Shown here piece after piece: positions 39,007-61,216 of a stretch of DNA of 64,000 nt. The notes beneath the pieces were generated by a model. It was not told where the DNA came from. It was given only the letters and a program-made list of their open reading frames with translations, and made no database searches. The stretch's first letter is position 1. Every line of letters starts with the position of its first letter. The stretch spans positions 142,192 through 206,191 of the forward strand of contig CALHAG010000002.1 of the NCBI GenBank assembly GCA_937934305.1, given 5' to 3'. The DNA comes from Candidatus Caldarchaeum subterraneum. GTDB taxonomy: Archaea; Thermoproteota; Nitrososphaeria_A; Caldarchaeales; Caldarchaeaceae. The position numbers and the translations under genes were made by a program.

Positions 39007-39007
39007 G

Positions 39008-40138
39008 TCATTCTTCCTCTGGTTTCCAAATGTCCTTGTTCGGGAAACCGCATTCCAAACATGCTACAGGAGCCCCGTGCGCCAACCCTCTCAGAACAGA
39101 GGAGCAGCTTGGGCATAGAAGCACCCGAACATTGTCAAGCGGCGGGTTGAGGTTTACGACTGGATAATAGGAGGGGAAGGGTGAGGTGTCCGCGGATATT
39201 AGCTTCATGAAGGCTCTCGGGTTTCTCGGGATGCTCAGGATTGCTTCAGGGCGTTTGAGCACTTCATGCAGATACGGTCCCTGCTTCACGGCTTTGAAGA
39301 GGTGCGGCCGCCAATCCAGCATCTTTACAGCTTCTTCGGGGCTCGGCAGCGGCTCACGCCGCTCCTCCACAGGCTGAGAACCGGTGTCTTGTTTCTTGTC
39401 TTCAGGCTTTGCTTTTAGACGCTTCACCGCTTGGAAAAACTTCGTGGCAGTTGTTTTCTTGACTCCGTTGACGAGGTGTTTTTCCTTAGACCGCCTATCC
39501 ACCACATGTATGCCCTCTTCTTCAAGCAGCTTTCTGGCGTCGAATCTCTCGACCATTGAGCGAACAGTTTCGAAAGGCAGGTTAAGCGATTCTGCCACTT
39601 TTCTCCATGAGCCGAGGAATTTATGGAGAGCGACTAGGCCTTCATAGAACTCCTCCTCGCTTAGAGGCAGTGTCTTGCCTTCGTCGCTTAATGCCCAGAG
39701 AAGGGCCTCCTTATCGCTTAAATCGAAAACATAGCAAGGTATCTCCTGTATCCCTGCTATGCGTGCGGCTTCGACACGGCGGGACCCTCTGACCACTCCA
39801 TATGTCCCATCTGGAAGCGGCCTGACGGCCACTGCTGAGACGAAGCCATGTTTAACTATGTCTTCCACCAACGGTTTCAGGTCACCAAGATTCTCTCTCG
39901 GGTTCATTGGGTCTTTCACTAGCTTGCTCAACGGCAGGGTTACGAGCTTAGGCTCGATTACCTGACCCATCATATTATTGCTCTTCGGAGGTATATTAAA
40001 GGAGTCTGGGCCATTTTCGGTCATCTCTCTCTCACCACCTCCAGTACACGGGCAGCCGTGGATTGACCAATTATTTTCGCCAAATGTTCGGTGGATATCC
40101 GGCGGAGGTCTTCCACCCTCCTGATACCAGCGTTCCAT
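39008..40138 (-). CDS. ParB-like nuclease-domain protein with a C-terminal zinc ribbon
   Basis: VRPLPDGTYGVVRGSRRVEAARIAG matches the ParB/Srx GxRRxxAA box. C-terminal CPSCSSVL...CLECGFPN. The likely true start is the ATG at 40024, which would give an ATGA overlap with the hel308 stop. Confidence 0.55.
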   Translation of the reverse strand: MERWYQEGGRPPPDIHRTFGENNWSIHGCPCTGGGEREMTENGPDSFNIPPKSNNMMGQVIEPKLVTLPLSKLVKDPMNPRENLGDLKPLVEDIVKHGFVSAVAVRPLPDGTYGVVRGSRRVEAARIAGIQEIPCYVFDLSDKEALLWALSDEGKTLPLSEEEFYEGLVALHKFLGSWRKVAESLNLPFETVRSMVERFDARKLLEEEGIHVVDRRSKEKHLVNGVKKTTATKFFQAVKRLKAKPEDKKQDTGSQPVEERREPLPSPEEAVKMLDWRPHLFKAVKQGPYLHEVLKRPEAILSIPRNPRAFMKLISADTSPFPSYYPVVNLNPPLDNVRVLLCPSCSSVLRGLAHGAPVACLECGFPNKDIWKPEEE

Positions 40139-42063: not shown

Positions 42064-42674
42064 TCGGCGACCACCTCAGGCCTTGACCAACCCAGCTCCG
42101 GAAGCTCCATGACCTCAACCATCCTAGCGTCTACGCTTTCGCCGGGCAGGAAGGAGAGGACCTTGGCGTAGAGGTTGCCCAGCATATCTCTAGAAAGGGA
42201 CACCACCTCTCCGACGTAGTAGGTTCTGCCGCCGCATTCAAGCTTTTTACCAGCGACGCTACATGGCCCAACCAAGGATTCATGGCTGTATGGATCCCTC
42301 CAGAAGACAACGGGCCTACCGGTTTCCCCACATCCAAGGCATGAATAGTCTTTCTGCAGAGATGTTTCTAGAACGGCTCCGCACTCTCTACATTTCATGG
42401 CCCAGAGACAGGGTAGGCGCCGGAAGATGCTGGGTTTTCCGCGGAAATGCTTAACCAGGTCATATTCCCTGCTGTTGATGAGAAGCCATAAAGAGCCTTC
42501 CCTGTCGATGTAGACGCGTTCCAGCTCGGGTAACGGAAGCCCGAGAGCGGGCTGGATACCGTGGGACGCCAGCTTCTCCCTGATTTTCTTATTGTGGACA
42601 ATAAAGTCCACGTACCGGTCTCTGTATATCCATGACGTGAAAGGCCCCACCATGAACCTGCCCAGCCTAGCCAT
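42060..42674 (-). CDS. Zinc-ribbon hypothetical protein, coupled to hel308
   Basis: CRECGAVL...CLGCGETG. Its stop overlaps the hel308 start. Confidence 0.35.
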   Translation of the reverse strand: MARLGRFMVGPFTSWIYRDRYVDFIVHNKKIREKLASHGIQPALGLPLPELERVYIDREGSLWLLINSREYDLVKHFRGKPSIFRRLPCLWAMKCRECGAVLETSLQKDYSCLGCGETGRPVVFWRDPYSHESLVGPCSVAGKKLECGGRTYYVGEVVSLSRDMLGNLYAKVLSFLPGESVDARMVEVMELPELGWSRPEVVAE

Positions 42675-44901: not shown

Positions 44902-45232
44902 TCCTCCTCGGCTCCCTCCTCTTTCTCCGCCTAGCTAGGGCAAGCATGCTGGCAAACAGGGTGGCTAAGGGCAAAGTGACCACGAGCATCGAAGGGTTGA
45001 CAACAGCCGTAGCCATCGCCGTGAAGACGATGATGTAGAAAACAGACTTGGCCGATAGAATCCCTTTGCCAACCTCGTCAGCACCCTGCTCTTCTCCATG
45101 TTTCCTCCGTGGAGGAGCTCTTGTCTGGGCTTCATGATAATCAGGCTCATATGCCGGCGGCTGCGATGCCATGCTCTCGTAAATCCTCTGGTTGATAATG
45201 TATTCATCCAAATAGCTGTCATCAGATGACAT
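44885..45232 (-). CDS. Small membrane protein, hypothetical
   Basis: 115 aa with one central TM (VFYIIVFTAMATAVV). Overlaps both neighbours by 11-17 nt. Confidence 0.3.
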   Translation of the reverse strand: MSSDDSYLDEYIINQRIYESMASQPPAYEPDYHEAQTRAPPRRKHGEEQGADEVGKGILSAKSVFYIIVFTAMATAVVNPSMLVVTLPLATLFASMLALARRRKRREPRRIGHEF

Positions 45233-47387
45233 ATTGCTTCATCTCCTCGAAATGCTTCAGCAATAGAATTCCGGGAATAGTCTTCTTATACCTCGTTCCA
45301 TCCATCCAAACTAGGCCATACTTGATGTAGTCATGAATGGAGGACTTGTCTTTCCAATTGCGGCAGAACCTGACAGCCACCGATGTGGGCAGTTTTCTAA
45401 GAATCTCGGCAGCCTCCTTGTTGATGGTTCTCTTTATCGCTAACTCTTTAGCGGCTATAACGTTGGACAGAAGCTCAAACTCCTCCGGGTCAAATTCTTG
45501 TGTATCGGTTTTTCTAGTCTCCTGCTTCTCTTCTACAGGTTCTTCTCCCGTGTTCGTTGCCTTGACTAAAGTCCTCTCCTTTGTCTCCTTTTCCTGTTTC
45601 TTCTTTTCAACATGTTTTCCGAGACAGCGACCATCGCTGGTCAGCACTCTGCCGCATTCGCTGCATGGCTTCGGCAGCCCGGGAGCCTTGTCTCCGCCAA
45701 GTTTCTCCCTCCGCATTTTGAAGATATAGCCATCCACGATGATTCTGGCCGGGTCTTGCCGGGACAGTGTCCTTATCCTCGCCGGCGTGACGAACCTGAT
45801 GTATGCCTCGCCTATCCCCAGCTCTGTTATCACGCGTCTGATGCTCTCGGGCGAGGTTTGGGAAAGAACCCACACATCCTCTGGAGAGGAGGTGTTGAAC
45901 ACGACCCACCGGTAGCAGGACTGTCTAATTCCGTCGGCTATGTCCGACAGCCTCTGCGTGACAAGAATCAACGCGACGGCGTAGCTTCTAGCGGTTCTGG
46001 CTATGTCTTCGAGCTTGCTACGGCTCCCCGAGTCCCTGCCGCCTCTGAGCTGGATAGGCTTGGTGACTAGGTACGCCTCGTCTATGACGACCACGACAGG
46101 CTTTTCTCTAGTGAAAGCCAGCGGCCCACGTTTCAGCATCATCTTGGCAAGCTTCCTAAGCAGGAACTCTAGGACTATTGCTCTGGTTTTCTCGTTCACA
46201 TCAGCCATGTTGAGCACCACGAGAGAGGGGCCATCCGCCGCAAACAATGGGCTATAGAGGTCGGAGACGCCGTAGGCATCTGTTTTAAAGACCGTCTTCA
46301 GGTCATACATCTTGTCGTAGATGCCTTCTATGGCGTCTTTGGTCTGCGGCCCATACTTCAGCTTCCCCTCCATTATTTCCCTCTCCACCTTCTCCAGTTT
46401 ATCCATCAGGTTTTCATACGTCAACTCGATGTTGGCGTGGCGCAGCTCGGCGTAGGCCACTCTGATGAAGTGAGCCTGCTTAGAGCCAACCTCCTCCAGA
46501 ACAGATATGCTGTCCATGAGGTCCTCAACCATCTGAGGCTCCGTCTCCCCCTCAAGGGCCTTGAACGGGTCTATGCCCGTGTGTGAGACCATGTAAATAG
46601 CCGCTCTCCCGTCGTCCACGTATCCGAGCTTGTAAAACGCTTCGGTGAAGTCGCCTTTGACATCGAAGAGCAAAACCTTGTAGCTCCCCATTAGCTGGGT
46701 GACTAGGCTAAACACTGTAGTTGTCTTGCCCGCCCCGCTCGCGCCAGCTATTATCATGTGCGGGTTGAACTCCCGCTCGCTCACGACCGGGGAATACCTC
46801 AGCTCTATGTTTCCGGGAATGGTGCGTACGAGGATATGGGTCTTGAGCTGAGCATCTTCATTGGTTTCGCGGTAGGGCTGCTCAACCATTCTCACGCTTT
46901 TGGAGACGGTGCCGAGGACGGCTGAGGACTCCTTGTTACCGGTTTCGACGTCTCTTCTAACCCTTCTGATTGTTGATGCCTGCTCAGCCACCGCGACTAT
47001 CGACGCTATGGTCGTCACCATCGGTATCGAGGGGAGGTTGGCTAGGACGATTGTGAAGGCTTTATGATATTCGAGCTGGGCGAAAACGGCTGCGATAACT
47101 AGGTCCAGCACAAGGCTTAGTATGAAGTAGTAGGCGCCCAAGCTCTTGGCGGCATACGCTATCGGAGCCGCGATGGAGGCGGGTCCCGAGCCTATCGGCC
47201 CCCAAGCCATCAAAGCCAGCATGATGGCGAAAAACACTCTGCCGACAATGAGTGCGCGAAGGCTCTTGACGGGCTTTATCTCAGGCGCGTTGCCTTCCCT
47301 AACCATGTAAAGGAATATGAAGGCTAGGATGTAGTTTAGGGCAAGGGCCGATGCTCCTAGGAAAGTTATCTCCATGTCACCATACAC
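45222..47387 (-). CDS. Membrane-anchored HerA/FtsK/VirD4-like P-loop ATPase with a C-terminal zinc ribbon
   Basis: N-terminal ~150-aa polytopic region. Walker A is MIIAGASGAGKTTTVFSL. Walker B is PVVVVIDEAYLV. C-terminal CSECGRVLTSDGRC. Confidence 0.6.
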   Translation of the reverse strand: MYGDMEITFLGASALALNYILAFIFLYMVREGNAPEIKPVKSLRALIVGRVFFAIMLALMAWGPIGSGPASIAAPIAYAAKSLGAYYFILSLVLDLVIAAVFAQLEYHKAFTIVLANLPSIPMVTTIASIVAVAEQASTIRRVRRDVETGNKESSAVLGTVSKSVRMVEQPYRETNEDAQLKTHILVRTIPGNIELRYSPVVSEREFNPHMIIAGASGAGKTTTVFSLVTQLMGSYKVLLFDVKGDFTEAFYKLGYVDDGRAAIYMVSHTGIDPFKALEGETEPQMVEDLMDSISVLEEVGSKQAHFIRVAYAELRHANIELTYENLMDKLEKVEREIMEGKLKYGPQTKDAIEGIYDKMYDLKTVFKTDAYGVSDLYSPLFAADGPSLVVLNMADVNEKTRAIVLEFLLRKLAKMMLKRGPLAFTREKPVVVVIDEAYLVTKPIQLRGGRDSGSRSKLEDIARTARSYAVALILVTQRLSDIADGIRQSCYRWVVFNTSSPEDVWVLSQTSPESIRRVITELGIGEAYIRFVTPARIRTLSRQDPARIIVDGYIFKMRREKLGGDKAPGLPKPCSECGRVLTSDGRCLGKHVEKKKQEKETKERTLVKATNTGEEPVEEKQETRKTDTQEFDPEEFELLSNVIAAKELAIKRTINKEAAEILRKLPTSVAVRFCRNWKDKSSIHDYIKYGLVWMDGTRYKKTIPGILLLKHFEEMKQYVI

Positions 47388-47901
47388 CTCTTCTCAAGAC
47401 ATACACCATGCTGCTGACCATTGCGCTGAAGCTGGTCACGGCGACGAAGGTCCACAGCCTGCTCTCCACGTTGAAAACCCGCTCCACAACGTCTCCATGG
47501 CTGGTCTCCATCCTCACTATGAACGTGGCCCTCGGGTAGGAGAATATGCGCCAAGAGGTTTCAGCGACACCTGATTCATCTGTGGAAACCTCTATAGATT
47601 CTCTAAACTCGGCATACTGTATCCTCAGCCTAGTGTTCGCAACGGGTCTGCAGACCGATGCATCCATTATTGTTGTCCCGTTGTCGAGAACCTTCCAGCA
47701 CCTCCCCCCGCTTCCAACCAGGTCTTCCACAACCAGTATCCGGAAAGTATATGGCCATAGGAAGTGAGCCTCCTGGGTTCTGTCGAAGAAGATTACGACC
47801 TTGGTGGGGTTGAAGCCGTCGGTGTTTTCATCGCCTATAGCCAGTGGCGCGGCCAGAGCCAGCAGCGCCAGAGACAATAGAAGAAGGTTAAGCGGTTTCA
47901 T
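47377..47901 (-). CDS. Secreted hypothetical protein
   Basis: Signal MKPLNLLLLSLALLALAAPLAIG. 174 aa. Embedded between the two ATPase genes. Confidence 0.35.
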   Translation of the reverse strand: MKPLNLLLLSLALLALAAPLAIGDENTDGFNPTKVVIFFDRTQEAHFLWPYTFRILVVEDLVGSGGRCWKVLDNGTTIMDASVCRPVANTRLRIQYAEFRESIEVSTDESGVAETSWRIFSYPRATFIVRMETSHGDVVERVFNVESRLWTFVAVTSFSAMVSSMVYVLRRGVW

Positions 47902-50683
47902 ACAGCATCTCCCTCCTGCTCATCCTCCTGCTCACCAGGGCCCTCTTGTCAGGCTCTATGCGGAAGAACAGCGGCCTGGGGTCGACGCTCCACTTGAGGA
48001 AGGCCTCGCCTGTCCCGAAGCCCTCCAGCCTCCTCCTCTCCTCGTCTGTCAGGTTAAGCAGCCTCTGGGCGTTCAGGGCCTCGCCCGGGTTACCGTAGCC
48101 GAAGGCAATCGTTGTGGAAACGAGTGCCGCCACGGTCGGGACACCTCTTCTCTTAGCCATGTCAGCCTCCTGAAGCAGGTCGTCGAGCAGATGCGTTATC
48201 ATGACGTAGCTGGTGCCGAACTTTCTCTCCTCCCTGAGGTGGGTACCGAGAGGGACTTCGCCGGCTTTTCCCAGCAAGAACTTGTGGCCCTCGTCGATTA
48301 TCACCATAAGCCTCACACCCTCCTTAACCTCTTGGCTGAGCATGTAATCATGTATGTGCTCGAGAATGCTCCAAGTGATTAGCCTCTGCATGTCGTCGCT
48401 CATACGCACCTGCCCGCCGCCAGACTGGGCGCGGAAACTCACTATCACGACACCTCCCTCCACCAGCAAATCCTTCAACATCACATCGGTCCTATCAAGC
48501 GCGAAAGCGCCCTCCGCATAGGGCCTCAGCCTCCTCTCTAGGTCAAGCAGCAGCGTTACGGCTGCGTCGAGCTCAGGCGAGCCTCCCCGCGAGATAACCA
48601 GCTTCTCAGCCTCTCTTCTCCTCCACGCAACATATGCATAGAGCTGGGCCATAGTACATTTAGACAGGTTCTCATCCCTCCATGTGGAGGGGTCTGAGTC
48701 ATCAACTCCGCCTATCCTCTTGTACATCAGCTTAAGCCCTTGGTAGAGTATGCTGGATTGGGTGGGCTGAAGCGGTATAGCATTGGGCAAAACCGCGTCC
48801 ACGAATCTGCTTATCCTCTGCTCGGGCGCTAGGCCTGAGAGAAGCAACGGGTTGTATTTCTTGTTGCAGAGGTCTACGACGGTGACCTTCAAGCCCATGG
48901 AGCGGAGCTCGTCAGCCTCGGCGGCGTATTCTCCGGCCGGGTCTATTATGATGACGGCGGGAGGCTTCCCCGTGCCAGAGTATTTGCTGAGGCCATCTAT
49001 CCTGAAGAGCAGCGTCTTTATCAGGGTGGACTTGCCGGTGCCGGGCGAGCCTAGCACAAGCATATGCGGGTTATGCAGCATCGACGGGTTCCAGTACACA
49101 GGCCTGCCATACTCGTCTCTGCCGAGGTATACGCCGTCCTTGGGCATTATTGGCCGGCGTCTGAAAGCCAGCGGGCTGACGGCCACGAAGTCCCTCGTCA
49201 ACGCTTTGACAACCGGTATCGGGTTGGGGTCGAAGACGGCTCTACGCGGCTGAGGAAGGTACATGAACCTGTGGCACAGCGCCGCTCCCCAGCCGTCTCC
49301 AACCACCTTTGTCGTGAAATTCATTGTGTCGAGGAGGCTGCGGGCCTCGTGAAGCTCCTTATCCAGCTTATCCAACTCTCTCCAGGAAACGTCTCCCGAG
49401 GCTCTAGCCCTAACCTCTACAACAAGGCTCATCAGGTAGGGCCTCTCCCCATGAGTTATTCTATCCGCCACATTCATGCTGCGGCCCGCTTTCAAGTAGC
49501 CGGACACGGCGCCGCCGACCTGAGCATCCATGCCGTACAGGTCAGCCCTTGCCATGGCGAGCTTGATTGTGTCGCCCACGGGCTGGGGAACTATGTGGAG
49601 AACAACCCTGAAGTCTTTGAGGGTGTAGATGAGGTTGTTGAAAGATGCGAGATACATGGCCAGCCTCCGCTCAATGTCTTCGGATGACAGGTCTCTGTTG
49701 TTGTTTCCAGTGACGGATAGATACTTCGATGCAATGGTCTCGCCATTGACGCGTCTAACCAATACGCCGTCCTCAAGGATGGAGTATTCCCCGCCTCCAA
49801 GGCTCCAGTGGGTATGTCTACCGGACAGCTTGCAGGTGGCTTTGGATACGCTGTTCGCCGCCCTGACGGTTAGTAGGAGGCCGATTATCCCGCTGATGAG
49901 GATTGTTGTCCCCAGTATTCCCAGCCCCGTGCTGAGCATTGATGTAAACAATGTCGCAAACGATGCGCTGCCGAGGATTATCACATGGTGCTTGGAGGGC
50001 TTGTAGGCGGCCTCGTCGCTGACGGCTATTTGATGACCCATGTATGACGCGTCGTCTATCACAACCGTTCCAATGCCTTCCATGCTTGTTGCAAGCGTTT
50101 TAGCAGCGGCCTCGACAGCGTGTACAGCGCCCTCCTCATCGCCCTCAACCACCTCGGAGTAGAGAACTATGTACGCGTATTCTCCTTGAGGCGACCTATC
50201 GATGATAAGCTTCGCCTCAACGTCGGCGAGGCCCTCTACAGCCTTCACCATTCTATCTAGTAGAAGCATCCTCTCATGCGCCGTCGTTGTTTCATAGTTT
50301 TTCTGCACGTCGGCTATCTTCAGCATCTTGACGGCGTAGCCTCTGCGCCTCCTCCTATCCTCGAAGAGCAGGGTTACTTCGCCGGGTTTTCTGGGGCCCT
50401 CGAAGAGCCTTATCTTGGTGGGCACACGCAGAGAATATGGGATATCAGGTGCGACGGCGAACCAGAAAGCCGTGGATGGAACGTTTTTCCTAAGGTATCC
50501 GACGGCGGCTGGATAGCTTCTCCTAGCGGCCAGCAGGGCTAGAAACACCGCCGGAAACAGGATAGCCATGTAGGGGGTATACGGAGCCAGTTGAGGGCTT
50601 AAGCCTATTATAGCTAATGTAACCAGTATAAGCCCGCCGAAGAAAAGCGGCCCGATGCCCAGAACCTTAGCAAGAACCCCCAT
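47888..50683 (-). CDS. VirB4/TrbE/CedB-like conjugation-type ATPase with N-terminal TM helices
   Basis: Walker A HMLVLGSPGTGKSTLIKTLL in the C-terminal half. Walker B is RLMVIIDEGHKFL. N-terminal hydrophobic helices. 931 aa. Confidence 0.65.
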   Translation of the reverse strand: MGVLAKVLGIGPLFFGGLILVTLAIIGLSPQLAPYTPYMAILFPAVFLALLAARRSYPAAVGYLRKNVPSTAFWFAVAPDIPYSLRVPTKIRLFEGPRKPGEVTLLFEDRRRRRGYAVKMLKIADVQKNYETTTAHERMLLLDRMVKAVEGLADVEAKLIIDRSPQGEYAYIVLYSEVVEGDEEGAVHAVEAAAKTLATSMEGIGTVVIDDASYMGHQIAVSDEAAYKPSKHHVIILGSASFATLFTSMLSTGLGILGTTILISGIIGLLLTVRAANSVSKATCKLSGRHTHWSLGGGEYSILEDGVLVRRVNGETIASKYLSVTGNNNRDLSSEDIERRLAMYLASFNNLIYTLKDFRVVLHIVPQPVGDTIKLAMARADLYGMDAQVGGAVSGYLKAGRSMNVADRITHGERPYLMSLVVEVRARASGDVSWRELDKLDKELHEARSLLDTMNFTTKVVGDGWGAALCHRFMYLPQPRRAVFDPNPIPVVKALTRDFVAVSPLAFRRRPIMPKDGVYLGRDEYGRPVYWNPSMLHNPHMLVLGSPGTGKSTLIKTLLFRIDGLSKYSGTGKPPAVIIIDPAGEYAAEADELRSMGLKVTVVDLCNKKYNPLLLSGLAPEQRISRFVDAVLPNAIPLQPTQSSILYQGLKLMYKRIGGVDDSDPSTWRDENLSKCTMAQLYAYVAWRRREAEKLVISRGGSPELDAAVTLLLDLERRLRPYAEGAFALDRTDVMLKDLLVEGGVVIVSFRAQSGGGQVRMSDDMQRLITWSILEHIHDYMLSQEVKEGVRLMVIIDEGHKFLLGKAGEVPLGTHLREERKFGTSYVMITHLLDDLLQEADMAKRRGVPTVAALVSTTIAFGYGNPGEALNAQRLLNLTDEERRRLEGFGTGEAFLKWSVDPRPLFFRIEPDKRALVSRRMSRREMLYETA

Positions 50684-50687
50684 GCTT

Positions 50688-51089
50688 TCACCTCCTCATC
50701 TTCACAACCAGCGCCACGGCGAAGGTGGACACGCCCACGATTAACGCGGCGAGCAGATGACCACTTATAGCCAGAACACCTGTGAACACGCCGCCGATTA
50801 TCAGGTATTTGCGCAGGCCAGCGTCGTAGGACACTTTCCTAGACGAGGGGCGCCTGCCACCTTTCTTGAGCAGGTCGACGGGCCTGCCGTTTTCATCCCT
50901 GATGTATGGGTCGTCGGGGTCTCTCGGCGTAGCCTCCTCCTCTCTTCGCCAGCCTCTCCTCAAGCCAAACTCATCTTCCTCACTCATTTTTCTCCTCACC
51001 ATTTTTCTTGTTTGAATTCTCCCCAGCCTGCCTCCATTCGGGAGGCATCTGGGACTCGGTATCGCCCACATCATTCTCCTTTTTTCCAA
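50688..51089 (-). CDS. Small C-terminally TM-anchored protein (VirB3-like position immediately upstream of the VirB4-like gene)
   Basis: C-terminal TM YLIIGGVFTGVLAISGHLLAALIVGVSTFAVALVV. The likely real start is the internal MSEEDEF, because the annotated N-terminus overlaps the upstream gene. Confidence 0.3.
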   Translation of the reverse strand: MEKRRMMWAIPSPRCLPNGGRLGRIQTRKMVRRKMSEEDEFGLRRGWRREEEATPRDPDDPYIRDENGRPVDLLKKGGRRPSSRKVSYDAGLRKYLIIGGVFTGVLAISGHLLAALIVGVSTFAVALVVKMRR

Positions 51090-54000
51090 AGTCTCCCCAA
51101 CTCATGTGTTCCGAAACATCCTGCGGCTCGGCGCTGGGCTCGCTTCCCGCCGTCCACCACGGCACCTTGAACTCGCCATCTGATTCGGAGCCAACCCGTT
51201 CAACAAAAGAGGCAGCGTCCTCCCTCTTTCCCAGAGAGTCGGCTACGCTGAAGAACTCGTCCAGAGTCCTCGGGTCATCGGCACCGGAGAAAATCTTCTC
51301 CCTGAGGCTATCCATGTACTGCTGCTGGGCCTCGGCCACGCCGGGGTCCGGCTGATAATCCGCTGGAGAGACATCGTAGCCCTTCGCCGGAGCAGCATGG
51401 GACATGCGCGCCCCCATCTCCTCCATCACTTTCATGAACTCGTCCAGCTCGTTCTTCGACACCTCGTAGGTCCCCATGTTCGTCTCCACGACAACCCTGT
51501 CGCCGCCGTCCACGAGGTTGGTGAGCCTGAAGTCAGGGTCATACGGGTTGGCGACAATCCACATATACTCGCCGATTCTCTCCTCGAATCTTCTAAAGTC
51601 CTCGGGCGTGCCGTAGGACCTGTGCATGTCGTAGGCGTGTTTGACGTCCGATGGGTCTCCTCCATAGTCATGCTGCTTTATGACGGGCTGCTCAGCCGTC
51701 CCCGCTGGGTGAAGTATGCCGGTCCTGAACTCAGGAACATAGGCAGGCGTCACCAACGGCCTAACGCCCTCGGGGGTGAAGGGGTTGTTATCCGCGGCGA
51801 GGCTGAACGCCGCCGGAGCCCTTATCTTTCCGTCGAGCTGGTCAGATATGTATCCGAAGAAGGCGCCGGCGCTTACATGGCCTGAGGCTGACAGCCTCGT
51901 GCTCATCCAGTCAGCAGCCTTCCCAACCGTTGGGGAGAGGATGCCCTCGACAAGGGATGCGCCAACAACGTGTTTGCCGAAGTCGCTTTTCGCGAAGCTG
52001 TCAACCAAGGCAATTCTCTCCGACATTGTTGAGGACTTGAGCATGTTTGCGAAGCCTTGCGCCACCTTCTCTGGACGCGCCTCAACCATCCTGCTCTGCT
52101 TAGCCCATCCTATCAAGAGGTCAGCCTTACGCATGGCCTCCTCCTGTGAATAGCCTTTCATCATGAGCCTCTCCGCATAGGCGTTTCTCACGGCTTCGGC
52201 GAACTTCGGGTCGCTTCTGACAGCGGACATGGCGACATTGGCGGTGTAGCTCCTTGTCATCACTCCGAGAACCAGCCTCTCAGCCCTTGCGACAATGCCT
52301 CTCTTGCCCTCAAGCTCCCGCTTCTTGTCCAGCATCCGCTCCATGACGCCGGAGAACCTTGTCCTCTCAGCGAATTTTTCCCACGACGCCCTGTTCCTCT
52401 CCCTCGCCTCTGTGGCGGCTTTGAGAAGCTGGTTCTCCTGCCTCCTCTGAATCCATCTAGCGATAAAGTCCACCCGGGACATCCGCTTAACCGCTGAAGC
52501 ATATGTTGTGAAGAACTTGGCCGCATGAGTGATGTTGCCAACCTTTGAGAAGAAGAAATGCATCATCACGCTTTGACCACCTACAAGCGACTGGAAAGTA
52601 TCTATGATGAGGGCTAGAAGACCAACAGCGATGCCTATGGCGAACGCCTGCCCTATCAATTCAGAGAGAGGCTTCAGAATAGCGACGCTCCCCGACCCAA
52701 CCATCAGGATGGGCAGAGTAGATATCGGAATATTGCTTCCAGCATACGCTCCATACGCGTTTCTGTAAAACGTCTCCGAAATGGTTCTGGCGAGAGGAAT
52801 GTTGGTGTCGAACACTGTGGCGTTAGTCTCCCAGTTCTGCTCCCTGTATGTGAGGAGGGCTGCGTTTATTCTCCGTGTAGCCTCATGACTAGGCCCATCC
52901 CTGTAAAGCCCCTGCCTAAAGTTCTGGTACCTAGCCCACTCGCCTCTAAAATTGTCCACGGAAATGCCTAGAATATTGTCGGGCACGTAGCCTCCCGACG
53001 CGAGCTGCCGAGTATACTCCCTGTCCTCGTCGAACTTGTGCCACTCTACCGGAGGCAGGTAAGGCATGGACTCGGAGGCCGTGAAGATGACCCTGAAGCT
53101 GTAGCTTAGGCTGTCGGGGACCTCTGGATAGCCGTCGTAGCTATCCCTTATGATTGTCTGGTTAGCTGTCACGAAGACTTTCTTCTGCTGGGTTGGGGCA
53201 TTCAATTCAAGAGGCTCGTTGCGGTCGATTGCTTCTACGCTCTGCGGCAGAGTGTAGGGGCCGTATCCATCTATGAAGCCCGCCGCCATAATCTCCTCGA
53301 AGCTTGAATCCAGAACGGTATGGTTCCATGTAGGTGGGTTTGATGTGGACGGCCTAAACTCGTAACTCCATGATGGTGTGCCGAGGCGTCTCTCGCATAC
53401 GTCGGTGCCGTTGACCGGGCCTCCATATATCGGGTCTATATGCCAGCAGACATCATAGTCATCCATGTTGAGGTAGACGAAGTATACGCTCTTGTTTCCG
53501 CTATAGTCGCCGCGGGTGTAGTAGTGCCAGCGCCAACAAGTCTCGGTGGTGGAGGAGTTGCCATCGGTCTCGCATGTGTATGTCTCGTTAACCGCCCACC
53601 TAAGCTCCCTCACCTTGGGCAGGGTTATACCATATATGTTCAGGTCCTCTTTCTTGGTTCCCCATGGCTGCTCCGTGAACCAGACGAAGGTTGTGTTCCT
53701 GTTGGCGGCCACCATCCAGAGACTTGTCTCGTTGTACAGGCTCGTGGACCTCCAGAAACTTTCCCACCTCTCTTTCCAAATCAGGTACGGGTTGCAAGAG
53801 ATTGAGCCATCGTCCCATCCGCCGAAGAAGAACTCCCGGTCAGGGTCAGTTCCGGTGCAGGCCATGGCGCTAGGGTCAGGGTCCTCGGGAACCTTGTGAA
53901 CTGTTATGTTGCGTGGAGAAGTGTCGTAGAGGGTCACCCACATGTTCAGGAACCAGACGCGCCTCGCGTAGGTGCCGTTAATCAGGGACATGCGGTAGCC

Positions 54001-55077
54001 CTCATCATAGGCGTTGTAGTATCCTCCGCCACCTGTGTCAAATATGGTCTTCTGAGGAGTCTTCAAAACATCTCTCATTATTTCTATTATTTGTTCGCAG
54101 GTCAGGTTGCCTCCGCGGGGCAGGTTAGCGCATACCTTGTCCCTATCTATCTCAGGAGGCTGAGTAAACTCGGCTGTTAGAAACGGGTACCACAATGTGT
54201 CGTTCTCCCTGTCATAAACCGTGTACCTCACGCCTCCCTCCATTTCGCCAACGCTCCTGCTGGCTATGCTAAGCTTCTGGATATCAGCGGCCTCCATGAT
54301 GCTGTTCTCAGCATAGCCCGGCGGAGGAGAAGCGGCTACAATGGCTACTGGGAGAGCGATGGTGAGGGTTGCACCGAGAACCATGAAGGTTTTGCCGACG
54401 CGCCTAGCGAAGGGTATCGCGAAAAGTACCAGGCCTATGGTGAATATGGCTGGGGCTACGAACTTAGCGAAGGACACGAATGCCACAACCCCCTCCATGA
54501 AGAGGACCACGCCGCTAAGCACCTTCGCTATAAACTGCAGCATGGCGAAGACGGCTCCGAAGATGAAGCTCGCTATCGCTGAGAGAAGTATTCCCACGCC
54601 CGATATCCAAGCCGGCAGAAGAGCCAGCATCATGATTGACTGGAGGGTGCCGAGAGCTATCGCCGCGTATGAAACCGCCTTCATCCACTCGAAAGCCATG
54701 TCCCTGCTGGCGCGAGCGGATGCGATGGCGTCGTCGAAGGTGGCTGTAAGCGGGAAACTGTATCCAAGGGAATGTAGGTAGCTTGAGACAATTGGTTTGA
54801 TGAGAGCTATGCTTCCTACAACGGCTAGAACCGCCACGGTTGACCAGCTATGCATCATCGCTGTGAAGCCCCAGCGCCTGAACTGGAGAATCGGGAGCCT
54901 GAACAATGCTATGCCAGAGGCATACACCAGCGCAGCCAAGCCGAAAACAATCTCAGCCTCCATAGCCATCACCCAAACCCGAGCGAAGCAGCCACCCCGC
55001 CTATGCCCTTTGAAAGGGCCGCGGCCGCAGCCGTCACTATCCCCCATCCCGCCAGCGAGCCTAACGCGAACCTCCAC
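50980..55077 (-). CDS. Giant (1365 aa) membrane protein: N-terminal polytopic domain (VirB6/CedA-like?) plus ~1000-aa extracellular W/Y/N-rich domain
   Basis: ~7 TM helices in the first ~330 aa, then ASPPPGYAENS, followed by many NxT/S sequons (NDTL, NGTY, NITV, NETS, NRTT, NGTD...). The likely real start is the internal MAMEAEIVFGL. Confidence 0.5.
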   Translation of the reverse strand: MEVRVRLAGGMGDSDGCGRGPFKGHRRGGCFARVWVMAMEAEIVFGLAALVYASGIALFRLPILQFRRWGFTAMMHSWSTVAVLAVVGSIALIKPIVSSYLHSLGYSFPLTATFDDAIASARASRDMAFEWMKAVSYAAIALGTLQSIMMLALLPAWISGVGILLSAIASFIFGAVFAMLQFIAKVLSGVVLFMEGVVAFVSFAKFVAPAIFTIGLVLFAIPFARRVGKTFMVLGATLTIALPVAIVAASPPPGYAENSIMEAADIQKLSIASRSVGEMEGGVRYTVYDRENDTLWYPFLTAEFTQPPEIDRDKVCANLPRGGNLTCEQIIEIMRDVLKTPQKTIFDTGGGGYYNAYDEGYRMSLINGTYARRVWFLNMWVTLYDTSPRNITVHKVPEDPDPSAMACTGTDPDREFFFGGWDDGSISCNPYLIWKERWESFWRSTSLYNETSLWMVAANRNTTFVWFTEQPWGTKKEDLNIYGITLPKVRELRWAVNETYTCETDGNSSTTETCWRWHYYTRGDYSGNKSVYFVYLNMDDYDVCWHIDPIYGGPVNGTDVCERRLGTPSWSYEFRPSTSNPPTWNHTVLDSSFEEIMAAGFIDGYGPYTLPQSVEAIDRNEPLELNAPTQQKKVFVTANQTIIRDSYDGYPEVPDSLSYSFRVIFTASESMPYLPPVEWHKFDEDREYTRQLASGGYVPDNILGISVDNFRGEWARYQNFRQGLYRDGPSHEATRRINAALLTYREQNWETNATVFDTNIPLARTISETFYRNAYGAYAGSNIPISTLPILMVGSGSVAILKPLSELIGQAFAIGIAVGLLALIIDTFQSLVGGQSVMMHFFFSKVGNITHAAKFFTTYASAVKRMSRVDFIARWIQRRQENQLLKAATEARERNRASWEKFAERTRFSGVMERMLDKKRELEGKRGIVARAERLVLGVMTRSYTANVAMSAVRSDPKFAEAVRNAYAERLMMKGYSQEEAMRKADLLIGWAKQSRMVEARPEKVAQGFANMLKSSTMSERIALVDSFAKSDFGKHVVGASLVEGILSPTVGKAADWMSTRLSASGHVSAGAFFGYISDQLDGKIRAPAAFSLAADNNPFTPEGVRPLVTPAYVPEFRTGILHPAGTAEQPVIKQHDYGGDPSDVKHAYDMHRSYGTPEDFRRFEERIGEYMWIVANPYDPDFRLTNLVDGGDRVVVETNMGTYEVSKNELDEFMKVMEEMGARMSHAAPAKGYDVSPADYQPDPGVAEAQQQYMDSLREKIFSGADDPRTLDEFFSVADSLGKREDAASFVERVGSESDGEFKVPWWTAGSEPSAEPQDVSEHMSWGDFGKKENDVGDTESQMPPEWRQAGENSNKKNGEEKNE

Positions 55078-55811
55078 ATCTTCATCAAAGTGTTGTTTTC
55101 AGGGTTGAGGAGCCACGCAACCAAGTCGAAGACGTTCTGCGGATTGGGTAGAACAAAGTCAGCCAGACTACATGCGTTTGCCTCTCCGGCTCCGCATGCG
55201 AGCAACCCTATAGCGGGTATGTAGGGCCCTGCGGCCACGAAAGCTATTGAAGCCGCTATAAACCATGCGCCTATTCCCCTGAGCTTTCCTCCGGGGACAG
55301 CCAGCAGGGCCACGCCAAGGGGAGCGAGGACCACTGCTAGCGAGCCGAAGACCGTTAAAAACACCATCAAGGTGAAGCTTGTTATAAGCGTCACGGAGAG
55401 GGCTAGACCCGGCAGAGAGGCGATTACGCTAAAGATGTTGGCTATCGCCGGCCCCACTATAGGTATCAGAGCGGTCCCCATTCCTATCCCCGTAATGATG
55501 GCCAGCAGCGAGAAGGCCTTATTGCCTACAGTCAAATACAGCGTTGGAAGGTCAGAACACTCAATCCTCGGAGCGGCTATAGAAGATGAAACAATATTGA
55601 TTAAACCATTGATAGAATTGGCTACGCCTAGGACGGCTACGACGCCGGCAGCCACGAGGCTGTATGAGATTAGGTGACCGCCCCATGAGCTGCCGCTTCC
55701 GCCCGGCAAAGGGGTTCTATGCAGGGCTAAGCCAACCGCATAGCCCAGGCTGACAAGGGCCCAGGCGACGGCGGCGTATTCACCCAACCCCGCGTAGGTA
55801 CAGCTAATCAT
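54969..55811 (-). CDS. Polytopic membrane protein (CedA/VirB6-like candidate)
   Basis: 280 aa with ~7 hydrophobic helices. Sits between the pilin candidate and the giant membrane protein. Confidence 0.4.
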   Translation of the reverse strand: MISCTYAGLGEYAAVAWALVSLGYAVGLALHRTPLPGGSGSSWGGHLISYSLVAAGVVAVLGVANSINGLINIVSSSIAAPRIECSDLPTLYLTVGNKAFSLLAIITGIGMGTALIPIVGPAIANIFSVIASLPGLALSVTLITSFTLMVFLTVFGSLAVVLAPLGVALLAVPGGKLRGIGAWFIAASIAFVAAGPYIPAIGLLACGAGEANACSLADFVLPNPQNVFDLVAWLLNPENNTLMKMWRFALGSLAGWGIVTAAAAALSKGIGGVAASLGFG

Positions 55812-55848: not shown

Positions 55849-56373
55849 TCAACTTGGCACGTCCCAGGGACCGCCTATAGGTATAGACGAGCCCTGCCCT
55901 GACGCTGCCACAGCCACGTCGGCTGCGAATTTTATGATGTAGAGGCCCAGCGCGGTCAGCCCGCCGACTATCAGCGCGCTGTCAATCAGTTGTCCGGCGC
56001 CCTCCTTGGTCCTGTGAGACCCTAGAGGCAGGAACTTTATCGCTATCCCCGCGCCCAGCAGAGCCATCGCAATCAGCAGGAGAAGCTGCTGAAACCCTTG
56101 CAACGGCTCCCTAATCAAGTTTGCAACCCCTCCCGCGCCCGCTGCGTGAACCGTCTGAGACGCCAGAGCCGTCGCCGCCAGTTGCACAGCCGTCAATGCC
56201 GCAGGCCTGAGCCGTGCCAACACCTTTCCCATTCTCCAAGCCTTGTGGGTTTTCATGGTCGCTTCGAGACCGTCTCCGAACATGATAATAGATAAACTTT
56301 TGGTGGCAAACCTGAACGAGAACTGAACGAAAGTTGAACGTAAGTTGAACGAGGAGAAACTATTTTCGGTCAA
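55849..56373 (-). CDS. VirB2/TrbC/CedA1-like pilin candidate; the probable true start is the ATG at 56256
   Basis: From the internal Met: MKTHKAWRMGKVLARLRPAALTAVQLAATALA (signal-like), then two hydrophobic helices separated by a short charged loop (GSHRTKEGAG). The annotated N-terminal 39 aa read through the promoter/repeat region. Confidence 0.4.
   Translation of the reverse strand: MTENSFSSFNLRSTFVQFSFRFATKSLSIIMFGDGLEATMKTHKAWRMGKVLARLRPAALTAVQLAATALASQTVHAAGAGGVANLIREPLQGFQQLLLLIAMALLGAGIAIKFLPLGSHRTKEGAGQLIDSALIVGGLTALGLYIIKFAADVAVAASGQGSSIPIGGPWDVPS
56282..56300 (-). promoter_or_regulatory. Candidate TATA-like promoter for the 15-gene minus-strand array
   Basis: The minus strand reads AAAAGTTTATCTATTATCATG ~27-45 nt upstream of the ATG at 56256. 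It lies immediately next to the TGAACG array. Confidence 0.3.
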
Positions 56374-59787: not shown

Positions 59788-61216
59788 ATGTGGGCTAGAG
59801 TTTTTGTGACACTGATAATCATCTTTGGCTTCATGGCTTACGCCTATGTTGCCGCGCTGAATGCTGCCACCCAACTATACAACAGAGGTATACTGAAGAC
59901 CCCACCACCTGCTTTAATCAACGTTGCGGATTTGACATGGGGGTCTATCATGGTGGTTTCAGCGATAGTCGTCATCACGCTAATCATCTCATTAGCGATG
60001 GCTATCTCTAGGTCACGGCGGTTGCTCGGAATAATCCCCGTCAACGATTTCCGAAGACACCTGCTGCTACTCGGACCCACTGGGTCCGGGAAAACAAACG
60101 CAGCCAAGAAGGCTATATCGCTGGCTATCCGCAGAGGTGTCAAGGTCATCGTCATCGACTGGAAAGCCCTCTCCTCCCCGCCAATATTTTTACATCTCTC
60201 ACGGGACGTCTGTAGAGTCGCATGGTGGAGCTGGGAGGGCCCAGAGAGGTGAATACGTTAACTTCGTCAAGGGAGCCACCGTTATCCGGAAGGTGAATCC
60301 GTGGGACAACGGAGGCTACACAGCGCGTCAGAGAGCTGTAATCGCTGTCGAAATGCTACGAGAAATCACCAGAGACATCGCTGACGTTTCTTCAGCATCT
60401 TCCGCAGTTCTCCTCCGAGAATTAATCAAGCTCTACGGAAAGGGGGTTCCGAAGAGCTCCGATGTCGTCAACAGGCTCGAGGAATTTTTCAGGACGGCGA
60501 TGATGGAGAGGCGTCTCGCAGAGGCTAACATGGCAGCGGCTTTGCTGCGGAGGCTGCAGTGGCTTGTCATCGATGAACAAAGAACAACAAAAAACGTCAT
60601 GGGTTCTGACGCCATTGTTATCTATGACCTATCAGAAATCCACAGCGTTTACTTGAAAACGTTATATGCGTTGACAGTGTTTCACAAAAACTACTACGAA
60701 GCTATGAGAGAGGGGTTGACAAACAGGCTGACGACTCTTCTGGTGGCCGAGGAATGCCAGAACTATGTCCACCCTCGACGTTTCGATGAACCACCCTCTC
60801 TTGGTGAGAGGGTGGTCAACGAGCTCAGAGGTTATGGCGTAGGAGTTCTGATGATATCGCCCGACCCGCTACAGATACCGATTCATTTACCACGTGATGT
60901 TGGCGCTGTGGCTTGCTTCGGAGCGCAGGCAGTTCCCGACTTCATCAGAGACATGCTGAGGGTGCTTCCACGTCAGCCAAAGATGGGAGAAGCCATCGTC
61001 TACCACAACGGCAGAATCAAGACAGCTAGGCCTCCGAAGAGGCCTCCTAAGACAATAGACCTGAAGACTGAGACAAAGGAGGTGATTGAAGAGGCTAAGC
61101 CTGAGGAGGCTGTCGAAACTCCTGCTACAATTCAACAACCTCAGGCGGAGGATGCTCAGACAAACCCGATAGAGCAGGAAGAGCCTTTGGAGGAGGCCCA
61201 GAGAGGCTCGAAATAG
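59788..61216 (+). pseudogene. Frameshifted membrane-anchored VirD4/TraG/HerA-like P-loop ATPase (two overlapping ORFs, 59788-60252 and 60137-61216)
   Basis: ORF 1 has two N-terminal TM helices plus Walker A LLLLGPTGSGKTNAAKK and then VKVIVIDWKA. ORF 2 (+1 frame) continues with a Walker B-like TLLVAEECQNYVHP. The frames overlap at 60137-60252 and there is a TATTTTT run at ~60190-60198. Confidence 0.5.

What the first reader, a model, noticed from the sequence alone, without database searches (positions are those of the whole stretch)
50980..55077. 1365-aa polytopic protein with a huge N-glycosylation-sequon-rich ectodomain in the transfer locus
After ~7 TM helices the protein has ~1000 residues rich in W/Y/N/T, with more than 15 NxS/T sequons and an acidic C-terminal tail.

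If the N-terminal domain is VirB6-like, this is a VirB6 with a giant surface extension. Such extensions in bacterial systems mediate cell-cell contact. Alternatively it is a mating or adhesion factor that defines partner specificity in DNA exchange.
Basis: partly seen in the sequence, partly recalled or inferred. Interest (0 to 1): 0.5.

Follow-up and report, generated by a model that had tools for sequence, protein, structure and literature searches.

The report
Giant VirB6-like archaeal DNA-transfer membrane protein
This is a real, conserved 1329-residue membrane protein found only in hot-spring archaea of the order Caldarchaeales; it sits in a DNA-transfer gene cluster and joins a channel-like membrane domain to a sugar-coated outer domain of unknown fold and an equally large inner domain, so it probably links the inside and outside parts of the transfer machine rather than acting as a variable mating-recognition factor.

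Summary
The ORF is real and conserved. The likely start is the ATG at 54969, giving 1329 aa rather than 1365.

The "~1000-residue ectodomain" is two domains split by a missed eighth TM helix (residues ~768-792):
- **Outer domain (~217-767):** rich in W/Y/N/T. It holds 13 of the 14 sequons (4.6 expected by shuffling) and all 8 cysteines.
- **C-terminal half (~793-1329):** sequon-poor, Cys-free, basic next to the membrane, acidic at the end. It is probably cytoplasmic.

The N-terminal polytopic domain is a likely paralog of the adjacent 280-aa protein (hhalign 93.7%). That neighbour weakly matches NCBIfam CedA/CedE, the archaeal VirB6 homologs.

The gene lies in a conserved operon: VirB2-like pilin, CedA-like, target, small TM protein, VirB4/CedB-like ATPase, HerA/CedD-like ATPase, Hel308.

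The family is tiny: 16 clusters among 1.84 billion representatives. All named members are Caldarchaeales.

A good AlphaFold model of the outer domain (pLDDT 78) has no PDB relative.

The outer domain is the best-conserved part. It is ~100% identical at DNA level to a strain whose pilin/CedA/N-domain cassette has diverged. This argues for a structural subunit, not a fast-evolving recognition factor.

Side finding: a likely bulge-helix-bulge intron in the neighbouring coupling-protein-like ATPase gene.

The parts
50980..54969 (-). Target CDS, 1329 aa plus stop (stop codon at 50980-50982).
   Evidence: ORF list. The ATG overlaps the upstream stop by 1 nt. Homologs start at the equivalent Met.
54322..54969 (-). 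N-terminal polytopic domain, residues 1-216, with 6-7 TM helices. It is a probable paralog of the adjacent CedA/VirB6-like protein.
   Evidence: Hydropathy. hhalign against the neighbour family gives Prob 82% and then 93.7%, E 1.9e-7, with decoys at or below 0.5%.
52669..54321 (-). Extracellular domain, residues 217-767. It is beta-rich, with 13 sequons and 8 Cys in four close pairs, and its fold has no PDB relative.
53794..53889 (-). Variable loop 1 of the outer domain, residues 361-392, flanked by Cys371 and Cys392.
   Evidence: Identity to distant homologs is 0.30 in this stretch, with indels. Modelled with low pLDDT. Cysteine positions.
53326..53448 (-). Variable loop 2 of the outer domain, residues 508-548. 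It contains Cys508 and Cys525, and some homologs carry a 23-column insertion here.
52594..52668 (-). Eighth TM helix, residues ~768-792.
   Evidence: KD hydropathy 2.48 for the window protein and 2.32 for the family mean. It forms a single long helix at 765-796 in AlphaFold model 1.
50983..52593 (-). C-terminal domain, residues 793-1329, probably cytoplasmic. The juxtamembrane part is basic, the rest is poorly conserved, and a few motifs are kept (DSxAR ~990, APAAF ~1051).
   Evidence: Residues 797-850 have 9 K/R against 2 D/E. The domain has 1 sequon and 0 Cys. Conservation profile.
50983..51339 (-). Acidic, Trp-containing, poorly conserved tail, residues 1211-1329.
   Evidence: 28 D/E against 13 K/R. 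Identity to homologs is 0.05-0.17. W-rich acidic ends recur in homologs.
54969..55811 (-). Upstream 280-aa polytopic protein. It occupies the CedA/TedA (VirB6-like) slot of the locus.
   Evidence: NCBIfam CedA E 8.5e-8, CedE E 4.3e-7, CedA1 E 3e-4, all below the curated cut-offs. Conserved in every related locus.
55849..56256 (-). VirB2/TedC/CedA1-like pilin candidate, ~135 aa from the ATG at 56256. It has a signal-peptide-like N-terminus and two hydrophobic helices joined by the loop FLPxGSHRTKE.
   Evidence: Alignments. Faint Pfam TrbC/VirB2 hit, E 0.44. Its position directly upstream of the CedA-like gene matches the Ted system (PMC9905601).
50688..50987 (-). 99-aa protein (MSEEDEF...) with a C-terminal TM segment and the conserved motif DPYxRDExGRP. 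Its start overlaps the target's stop by 8 nt. It sits in the VirB3-like position before the VirB4-like gene.
   Evidence: Genes of 75-155 aa are called at this position in loci L003-L009.
47888..50683 (-). VirB4/CedB/TedB-like ATPase, 931 aa, with N-terminal TM helices.
   Evidence: Pfam DUF87 and AAA_10. NCBIfam CedB E 1.5e-19, plus VirB4 families.
45222..47387 (-). Second ATPase of the HerA/CedD/TedD type, 721 aa.
   Evidence: Pfam DUF87, HerA_C and TrwB_AAD_bind. NCBIfam HerA, CedB and CedD.
54200..54320 (.). Recombination breakpoint at about residue 236 of the target, on the boundary between the TM domain and the outer domain.
   Evidence: In 150-nt windows against locus L007, identity is 62-81% upstream of ~54270 and 93-100% from 54266 down to 50067. 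BLAST extends the block to 40980 at 96.9% overall.

Best explanation
The protein is an integral structural subunit of a Ced/Ted-type DNA-transfer machine, a system derived from type IV secretion and specific to Caldarchaeales.

**Shown:**
- It is always encoded between a CedA/VirB6-like gene and a small TM protein plus a VirB4-like ATPase, with overlapping stop and start codons.
- Its N-terminal polytopic domain is a probable paralog of the CedA-like neighbour.
- It has a ~550-aa sequon-rich, Cys-containing, well-conserved domain between TM7 and TM8, followed by a ~540-aa sequon-poor tail.

**Inferred:**
- The N-domain joins the CedA-like protein in the membrane channel and pilus-assembly platform for the VirB2-like pilin. 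Saccharolobus likewise needs the two paralogs CedA and CedE.
- The N-glycosylated outer domain projects into the space under or through the S-layer. There it forms the extracellular base, collar or stalk of the pilus. In bacteria VirB5, VirB8, VirB9 and VirB10 do this job, and none of the genes scanned in this locus matched such a model.
- The tail has a basic juxtamembrane region and an acidic Trp-rich end. It docks the VirB4-like and HerA/CedD-like ATPases or the DNA-processing enzymes.

One polypeptide would thus couple the cytoplasmic motor to the surface structure.
For: **Gene context.**
- The same gene order holds in eight related loci spanning 30-95% identity.
- Start and stop codons overlap by 1 nt and 8 nt, which suggests translational coupling.

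**N-domain homology.**
- hhalign against the CedA-like neighbour gives Prob 93.7%, E 1.9e-7; reversed decoys give at most 0.5%.
- The neighbour matches NCBIfam CedA, CedE and CedA1. The ATPases match CedB, VirB4 and CedD.

**Topology.**
- 13 sequons against 4.55 +/- 1.93 expected.
- Seven sequons are kept in at least 18 of 19 homologs, and 8 Cys occur only in this domain.
- ARRVGK precedes TM7. After TM8 there are 9 K/R against 2 D/E.
- At family level there is a single hydrophobic peak at 767-799.

**Structural role rather than variable role.**
- The outer domain is the best-conserved region.
- It is identical between strains whose pilin cassette differs.
- The recombination breakpoint falls exactly at the N-domain/outer-domain boundary. 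The N-domain is therefore inherited together with the pilin and the CedA-like gene, as expected for interacting partners.

**Literature.** CedA and CedE are both required, and VirB3/VirB8 homologs are said to be absent from archaeal systems (PMC11868833). Other genes in Ted loci remain uncharacterised (PMC11823120).
Against: - There is no experimental or co-evolutionary evidence of contacts with the pilin, the CedA-like protein or the ATPases.
- The target itself matches no VirB6, TrbL, CedA or TraG model.
- The TM count is ambiguous. With exactly 7 N-terminal helices, the basic loop RLPILQFRRWG (24-34) lies on the same side as the outer domain, against the positive-inside rule. Six helices would fit better.
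- The C-terminal domain was not modelled, and its function is pure inference.
- The recombination pattern rests on metagenome-assembled contigs, which can be chimeric.
- High conservation does not rule out a role in contacting a conserved surface feature of partner cells.
Confidence: 0.5

Rival explanations
1. It is a mating-pair, adhesion or partner-recognition factor. The outer domain would bind the S-layer or glycans of a partner cell and set who exchanges DNA with whom.
For: - The domain is large, glycosylated and surface-exposed, and sits in a transfer locus.
- Two variable loops, each flanked by cysteines in this protein, could carry specificity.
- F-like TraG has a polytopic N-domain and an extracytoplasmic domain that acts in mating-pair stabilisation, with a short hypervariable specificity region (PMC9797247).
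Against: - The outer domain is the most conserved part of the protein.
- It is ~100% identical at DNA level between strains whose pilin, CedA-like gene and N-domain have diverged to 62-77%.
- The window also carries a separate type IV pilus cluster with sequon-rich secreted proteins (1096-12745). That cluster is a better analogue of the Ups aggregation pili.
- No adhesin-like fold was detected.
Confidence: 0.2
2. It is an entry-exclusion or surface-exclusion component like F TraG/TraS. The outer domain or tail would recognise a cognate protein in a cell that already carries the element and block redundant transfer.
For: - The architecture parallels TraG: a polytopic N-domain needed for pilus assembly plus a large hydrophilic domain (PMC9797247; PMC7648143).
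- The gene shows a mosaic recombination pattern.
Against: - No TraS-like partner was identified.
- The hydrophilic domains are nearly invariant among the closest strains, whereas exclusion determinants are typically allele-specific.
- No sequence or fold similarity to TraG was found.
Confidence: 0.07
3. It is an S-layer or cell-envelope remodelling factor, the functional analogue of VirB1. The outer domain would locally open or penetrate the S-layer so that the pilus can pass.
For: - None of the locus genes scanned matched a lytic enzyme model.
- The outer domain is extracellular, rigid (disulfides, long beta-hairpins) and conserved.
Against: - A fused VirB6-like domain and a large cytoplasmic tail would be unnecessary for such an enzyme.
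Confidence: 0.08
4. It is a cell-cell fusogen or membrane-bridging protein, as archaeal fusexins are thought to be. DNA exchange would then go through cytoplasmic bridges.
For: The ectodomain is beta-rich, glycosylated and contains disulfides, and it is followed by a TM anchor in a mobile or transfer locus. The fusexin comparison rests on my own knowledge.
Against: - The locus encodes a complete pilin, VirB6-like and VirB4-like set, which implies pilus-based transfer.
Confidence: 0.03

Closest known systems
CedA / CedE (Sulfolobales Ced system) and TedA (Thermoproteales Ted system): archaeal VirB6 homologs
   Same: - The domain is polytopic with 5-7 TM helices.
- It is encoded next to a VirB2-like pilin and near VirB4/CedB and CedD-like ATPases.
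- Two paralogous channel proteins occur in one system, as with CedA plus CedE.
- The N-domain aligns collinearly with the CedA-like neighbour (PMC9905601, PMC11868833).
   Different: - CedA, CedE and TedA are ~250-300-aa membrane proteins. This protein adds a ~550-aa glycosylated outer domain, an extra TM helix and a ~540-aa cytoplasmic tail.
- No direct HMM hit to CedA or CedE.
- The host lineage is Caldarchaeales, where the papers searched describe no Ced/Ted system.
Extended VirB6-like proteins: F-plasmid/R100 TraG and Rickettsiales VirB6 paralogs
   Same: - A VirB6-like polytopic domain is fused to a very large hydrophilic extension.
- At least part of that extension is extracytoplasmic or surface-exposed.
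- One protein combines pilus assembly with an envelope-spanning function (PMC9797247, PMC7648143).
   Different: - There is no sequence or fold similarity in the extension.
- Here the extension is split by a TM helix into an outer domain and a cytoplasmic domain.
- The outer domain is N-glycosylation-rich and highly conserved. It is not repeat-rich, and it lacks a hypervariable stretch like TraG residues 610-673.
VirB6 of bacterial T4SS (Agrobacterium VirB6, R388 TrwI; Pfam TrbL/VirB6)
   Same: - It is a polytopic inner-membrane component encoded with VirB2 and VirB4 homologs.
- The literature proposes it as the channel and pilus-assembly platform.
- It has a large extracytoplasmic loop (for VirB6 topology).
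   Different: - No Pfam TrbL hit even at E <= 1.
- The link is only transitive, through the neighbour and CedA.

Membership tests
VirB6/TrbL (Pfam PF04610) | Significant match to the TrbL/VirB6 profile | tested here: not met
   Pfam scans of the target and of 11 family members at E <= 1 list no TrbL/VirB6 hit. An exhaustive HMMER search with residues 1-830 found only 16 representatives, none outside this family.
VirB6/TrbL (Pfam PF04610) | Fold superposes on solved VirB6 (R388 TrwI) | tested here: inconclusive
CedA/CedE/TedA (archaeal VirB6 homologs; NCBIfam NF041796, NF053657) | Match to the CedA or CedE profile | tested here: not met
   The target and 10 homologs give no hit at E <= 1. The adjacent 280-aa protein does hit CedA (E 8.5e-8) and CedE (E 4.3e-7), but at about 30 bits, far below the curated cut-offs of 330 and 400.
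CedA/CedE/TedA (archaeal VirB6 homologs; NCBIfam NF041796, NF053657) | Profile-profile homology to a CedA-like protein across the TM domain | tested here: met
   hhalign of the N-domain (25 sequences) against the neighbour family (9 sequences) gives Prob 93.7%, E 1.9e-7, 181 columns, positions 4-209 against 13-199. Reversed decoys give 0.1-0.2%. Most block-shuffled decoys give 4-15%.
CedA/CedE/TedA (archaeal VirB6 homologs; NCBIfam NF041796, NF053657) | Polytopic protein with 5-7 TM helices, encoded beside a VirB2-like pilin and a VirB4-like ATPase | tested here: met
   Hydropathy. Conserved gene order in 8 related loci.
CedA/CedE/TedA (archaeal VirB6 homologs; NCBIfam NF041796, NF053657) | Required for DNA import or export | not testable with these tools
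   This needs genetics in a cultivable Caldarchaeales strain.
Extended VirB6-like / F-type TraG | VirB6-like polytopic N-domain followed by a large extracytoplasmic hydrophilic domain | tested here: met
   The N-domain is homologous to the CedA-like protein. The ~550-aa domain shows outside signatures. Unlike TraG, it is followed by a further TM helix and a cytoplasmic domain.
Extended VirB6-like / F-type TraG | Sequence or fold similarity to the TraG N- or C-domains | tested here: not met
   No TraG-family hit in Pfam or NCBIfam. No PDB relative of the outer domain.
N-glycosylated archaeal surface protein | Sequon enrichment restricted to the predicted extracellular part | tested here: met
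   13 sequons observed against 4.55 +/- 1.93 expected, none of 5000 shuffles reaching 13. Density is 2.45 per 100 aa, against 0.19 in the C-terminal half and 0.16 in neighbouring ORFs. Seven sites are kept in at least 18 of 19 homologs.
N-glycosylated archaeal surface protein | Glycans actually attached | not testable with these tools
   This needs glycoproteomics.
Class II fusogen / fusexin | Three-domain beta-rich fusogen fold | tested here: not met

The most novel reading that the evidence does not exclude
Caldarchaeales carry a third, undescribed lineage of archaeal DNA-transfer machines derived from type IV secretion, alongside Ced and Ted. In it a single 8-TM polypeptide replaces the bacterial stalk and outer scaffold (VirB5, VirB8, VirB9, VirB10). 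A VirB6-like channel domain would be covalently tied to an oligomeric, glycosylated, novel-fold outer domain. That domain would form the conduit or pilus base through the S-layer, and a cytoplasmic domain would hold the ATPases.
Probability: 0.3. Interest if true: 0.8.

Novelty: new variant of a known kind. Interest (0 to 1): 0.55.

Why it matters
How archaeal Ced/Ted machines cross the envelope is an open question. The published parts lists contain only a pilin, VirB6-like proteins and ATPases. The authors themselves note that VirB3, VirB8 and outer-complex equivalents are missing (PMC11868833).

This protein is a concrete candidate for that missing link, because one chain carries:
- a VirB6-like membrane domain;
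- a conserved glycosylated outer domain of a fold not seen in the PDB;
- a large cytoplasmic domain.

It also extends T4SS-derived DNA-exchange loci to Caldarchaeales. Some members of that order have now been cultivated (PMC9246946, PMC12979851), so the idea could be tested. The outer domain is also a well-predicted new fold worth solving.

Tried and rejected
1. **Family scans.** Pfam, NCBIfam and PHROGs scans of the target and of 11 family members gave only noise: dCache_3 at E 0.096 and a tape-measure PHROG at E 0.006 over the TM8 region.
2. **PDB sequence profile search.** The whole-family profile gave only coiled-coil noise, E > 3.
4. **Searching again with a broader alignment.** The search for homologous proteins returned the same 19 proteins. 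With the C-terminal domain alone it returned a single fragment. Neither search added reach.
5. **afdb50 Foldseek.** The library was unavailable.
6. **Pilin homology.** I tested whether the N-domain or TM8 region is pilin-like, as the CedA N-terminus is CedA1-like. hhalign against the pilin family gave at most 2.3%. The 280-aa neighbour gave 9-15%.
7. **Two-TM reading of 747-800.** This would put the C-terminal half outside. I rejected it for three reasons. Family-mean hydropathy shows one strong peak and only a weak shoulder. The following segment is strongly basic. The C-terminal half lacks sequons and cysteines.
8. **Fusexin-like fusogen.** Rejected on fold searches.

Full report
**The ORF and its start.** The window has an uninterrupted minus-strand ORF at 50980..55077, 1365 codons from a GTG. 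The ATG at 54969 overlaps the stop codon of the upstream gene by one base (GGGTGATGG). All homologs begin at the equivalent methionine. I therefore treat the protein as 1329 aa and number residues accordingly.

**Organism and family size.**
- G+C is ~55% and ARAGORN finds no tRNA gene in the window.
- The word-indexed search of 5.8 billion sequences found 19 clusters.
- An exhaustive HMMER search with a 12-sequence profile of residues 1-830 covered 1.84 billion cluster representatives. It found only 16 proteins at E <= 0.001. Nine are longer than 1100 aa and share the architecture; the other seven (70-765 aa) match only part of the profile.
- Every named member comes from Caldarchaeales: Ca. 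Caldarchaeum, Ca. Wolframiiraptor allenii and Ca. Terraquivivens tikiterensis.

**Domain anatomy.** Hydropathy of the protein and of the family average shows four features:
- two N-terminal helices;
- a continuous hydrophobic block at 98-188;
- a helix at 193-215;

AlphaFold model 1 draws a single helix at 765-796. The hydrophilic ~1000 residues are therefore two domains on opposite sides of the membrane.

- Composition is W 3.6% and Y 6.8%.
- It holds 13 of the 14 sequons, against 4.55 +/- 1.93 in 5000 shuffles.
- Seven sequons are conserved in at least 18 of 19 homologs.
- All eight cysteines lie here, in four close pairs: 280/291, 371/392, 466/478 and 508/525.
- Sequon density is 2.45 per 100 aa. 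This is the highest in the window, above proteins with signal peptides (0.3-1.6) and far above cytoplasmic neighbours (about 0-0.4).

The second domain, 793-1329, looks different:
- It has one sequon and no cysteine.
- Its first 54 residues have 9 K/R against 2 D/E.
- Its tail is acidic and Trp-containing.
- The loop ARRVGK precedes TM7.

These independent signals put 217-767 outside and the C-terminal half inside. One caveat remains. With exactly seven N-terminal helices, the basic loop at 24-34 falls on the outside, so six helices may be the true count.

**Gene context.** The target lies in a tightly packed minus-strand operon:

| Position in operon | Product | Evidence |
|---|---|---|
| 1 | VirB2/TedC-like pilin candidate: signal peptide, two hydrophobic helices, FLPxGSHRTKE loop | |
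| 2 | 280-aa polytopic protein; NCBIfam CedA E 8.5e-8, CedE E 4.3e-7, CedA1 E 3e-4 | |
| 3 | Target | – |
| 4 | 99-aa TM protein whose start overlaps the target's stop by 8 nt | |
| 5 | 931-aa VirB4/CedB-like ATPase with N-terminal TM helices | |
| 6 | 174-aa signal-peptide protein | |
| 7 | 721-aa HerA/CedD-like ATPase | |
| 8-9 | Two unknown proteins, 744 aa and 204 aa | |
| 10 | Hel308-type helicase | |
| 11 onward | ParB-N, KaiC/RecA-like and MCM-like AAA genes | |

The same order, as far as each contig extends, is kept in eight related loci. This includes the clade that is only ~30% identical. The arrangement matches the published Ted and Ced systems: a pilin, a VirB6-like protein directly downstream, a VirB4-like ATPase and a second ATPase (PMC9905601, PMC11868833, PMC11823120). 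The full-text searches found no paper that describes such a system in Caldarchaeales.

**Is the N-domain VirB6-like?** Direct profile searches say no. There is no TrbL, VirB6, CedA or TraG hit for the target or for ten homologs. Profile-profile comparison links it to its neighbour:
- The first comparison gave Prob 82% and E 1e-5. With larger alignments it rose to Prob 93.7% and E 1.9e-7.
- The alignment covers 181 collinear columns, 4-209 against 13-199.
- Reversed decoys score 0.1-0.5%. Most block-shuffled decoys score 4-15%.

The canonical CedA slot belongs to the 280-aa protein. The target's N-domain is best read as a second, divergent paralog, comparable to CedE beside CedA.

**The outer domain.** The first AlphaFold run covered residues 1-830 with 20 sequences and was poor, with pLDDT 52.5. 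A second run covered residues 214-770 with a deeper alignment that included the divergent clade. It gave pLDDT 78.1 and pTM 0.74, with 227 residues at or above 90.
- The domain is mixed alpha/beta.
- It has very long beta-hairpins, at protein residues ~445-467/475-500 and ~593-610/620-631.
- Cys466 and Cys478 flank the tip of the first hairpin.
- Helices lie at both membrane-proximal ends.

**Conservation and recombination.** The data show the opposite.
- Per-domain identity to homologs is 47-99% for the outer domain. For the C-terminal half it is 24-49%, apart from the two closest relatives at 85% and 99%.
- In 30-aa windows the outer domain scores 0.55-0.77, except for two loops at 361-390 (0.30) and 511-540 (0.41). 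The tail falls to 0.05.
- Against locus L007, from a Ca. Caldarchaeum metagenome-assembled genome, DNA identity is 93-100% from window 54266 down to 50067 in 150-nt windows. BLAST carries the block on to 40980 at 96.9% overall.
- Upstream of ~54270 identity drops sharply to 62-81%. That stretch covers the N-domain, the CedA-like gene and the pilin gene.
- The breakpoint, at about residue 236, is the boundary between the TM domain and the outer domain.

If the contigs are not chimeric, pilin, CedA-like protein and N-domain travel as one exchangeable cassette. That is what one expects of physically interacting parts. It also makes the cassette, not the outer domain, the diversifying module.

**Interpretation.** I conclude with moderate confidence that this is a structural subunit of a Ced/Ted-type machine. 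It would consist of a VirB6-like membrane domain, an extracellular glycosylated domain of new fold at the pilus base or through the S-layer, and a cytoplasmic docking domain. The roles of the two large domains are inferred, not shown.

Adhesion or recognition, exclusion, S-layer remodelling and fusogen readings remain possible but are less well supported. Among known systems the closest analogues are the extended VirB6-like proteins, F TraG and the Rickettsiales VirB6 paralogs. This protein differs from them in three ways. The extension is split across the membrane. It shares no sequence or fold with them. Its outer domain is conserved rather than variable.

**Side finding.** The divergently transcribed coupling-protein-like ATPase gene (59788..~61440, plus strand) is interrupted by 82 nt at 60165-60246.
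- Homologs in three loci are uninterrupted and read ...IDWKGEY....
- Two other loci carry 99-nt and 98-nt insertions after the same codon.
- All three insertions fold into a 4-bp helix (CUGG/CCAG) flanked by 3-nt bulges on opposite strands.
- The inner helix shows compensatory changes: GCCCUC/GAGGGC against GCGGG/CCCGC.
- Cutting after the second bulge nucleotide restores the frame exactly.

This is the signature of an archaeal bulge-helix-bulge intron in a protein-coding gene. The classic example of such an intron is cbf5 (PMC2738675).

Noticed in passing
window 60165-60246 (+), inside the ATPase gene at 59788..~61440; also L001 4843-4941 and L005 592-689: This is a candidate bulge-helix-bulge intron in a protein-coding gene, a coupling-protein/HerA-like ATPase with Walker A GPTGSGKT.
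- An 82-nt insertion splits the gene into two frames exactly between ...IDWK and GEYV....
- Two other loci carry 99-nt and 98-nt insertions after the same codon. Three loci lack any insertion.
- All copies share the central helix CUGG/CCAG and the 3-nt bulges AAA and A(G/A)A. The inner helix shows compensatory changes.
- Removing the insertion restores DWKGEY and a continuous ORF.
- Archaeal pre-mRNA introns of this type are known mainly from cbf5 (PMC2738675).
   Followed up: partly
window ~54200-54320 (breakpoint); block 40980-54266: There is a sharp recombination boundary inside the target gene, between the TM domain and the outer domain. Downstream DNA is 93-100% identical to a Ca. Caldarchaeum contig (L007). 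Upstream, the N-domain, the CedA-like gene and the pilin gene are 62-81% identical. P0001 and P0002 share an identical N-terminal ~400 residues but differ afterwards, so the gene is mosaic among strains. Chimeric metagenome assembly cannot be excluded.
   Followed up: partly
window 50688-50987 (-): A 99-aa protein (MSEEDEF...) has a charged N-terminus, the conserved motif DPYxRDExGRP and a C-terminal TM segment ending in RR. Its start overlaps the target's stop by 8 nt, and it lies directly before the VirB4-like gene. That is the position VirB3 holds in bacterial systems, and archaeal systems are said to lack a VirB3 homolog (PMC11868833).
   Followed up: partly
window 47377-47901 (-): A 174-aa protein with a signal-peptide-like N-terminus and a C-terminal hydrophobic anchor sits between the two ATPase genes. 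It is conserved at this position in all related loci whose contig reaches that far (171-178 aa) and matches no family. It may be another extracellular part of the machine.
   Followed up: no
window 40021-44901 (-): Two conserved proteins of unknown function (744 aa with N-terminal TM helices, and 204 aa) lie between the HerA/CedD-like ATPase and a Hel308-type helicase. ParB-N, two KaiC/RecA-like and an MCM-like AAA gene follow at 36713-40138. The set looks like a DNA-processing module attached to the transfer genes.
   Followed up: no
window 1096-12745 (-): A type IV pilus-like cluster holds a T2SSF-type membrane protein, a T2SSE-type ATPase and several large signal-peptide proteins rich in sequons; the 914-aa protein has 15. 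It may be the counterpart of the Ups aggregation pili that work with the Ced system in Sulfolobales.
   Followed up: no
window 17036-20182 (+) and 28328-29959 (+): Two stretches of lower G+C (45-49%) carry defence genes: a 1048-aa N6-methylase/Eco57I-type enzyme and a protein with the GmrSD N-terminal domain. They suggest an island of accessory genes next to the transfer locus.
   Followed up: no
window 56285-56296 (-): A TATA-like element (TTTATCTATTAT), preceded by an A-rich BRE-like stretch, lies ~35 nt upstream of the probable pilin start ATG at 56256. This fits a promoter for the whole operon and a leaderless or short-leader transcript. It rests on reading the sequence only.
   Followed up: no
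window ~52528-52545 (-), residues 809-814: The motif K-V-G-N-I-S/T directly after TM8 is conserved in 18 of 19 homologs. It holds the only sequon outside the outer domain. Because it lies on the predicted cytoplasmic side, it is probably conserved for a reason other than glycosylation.
   Followed up: no
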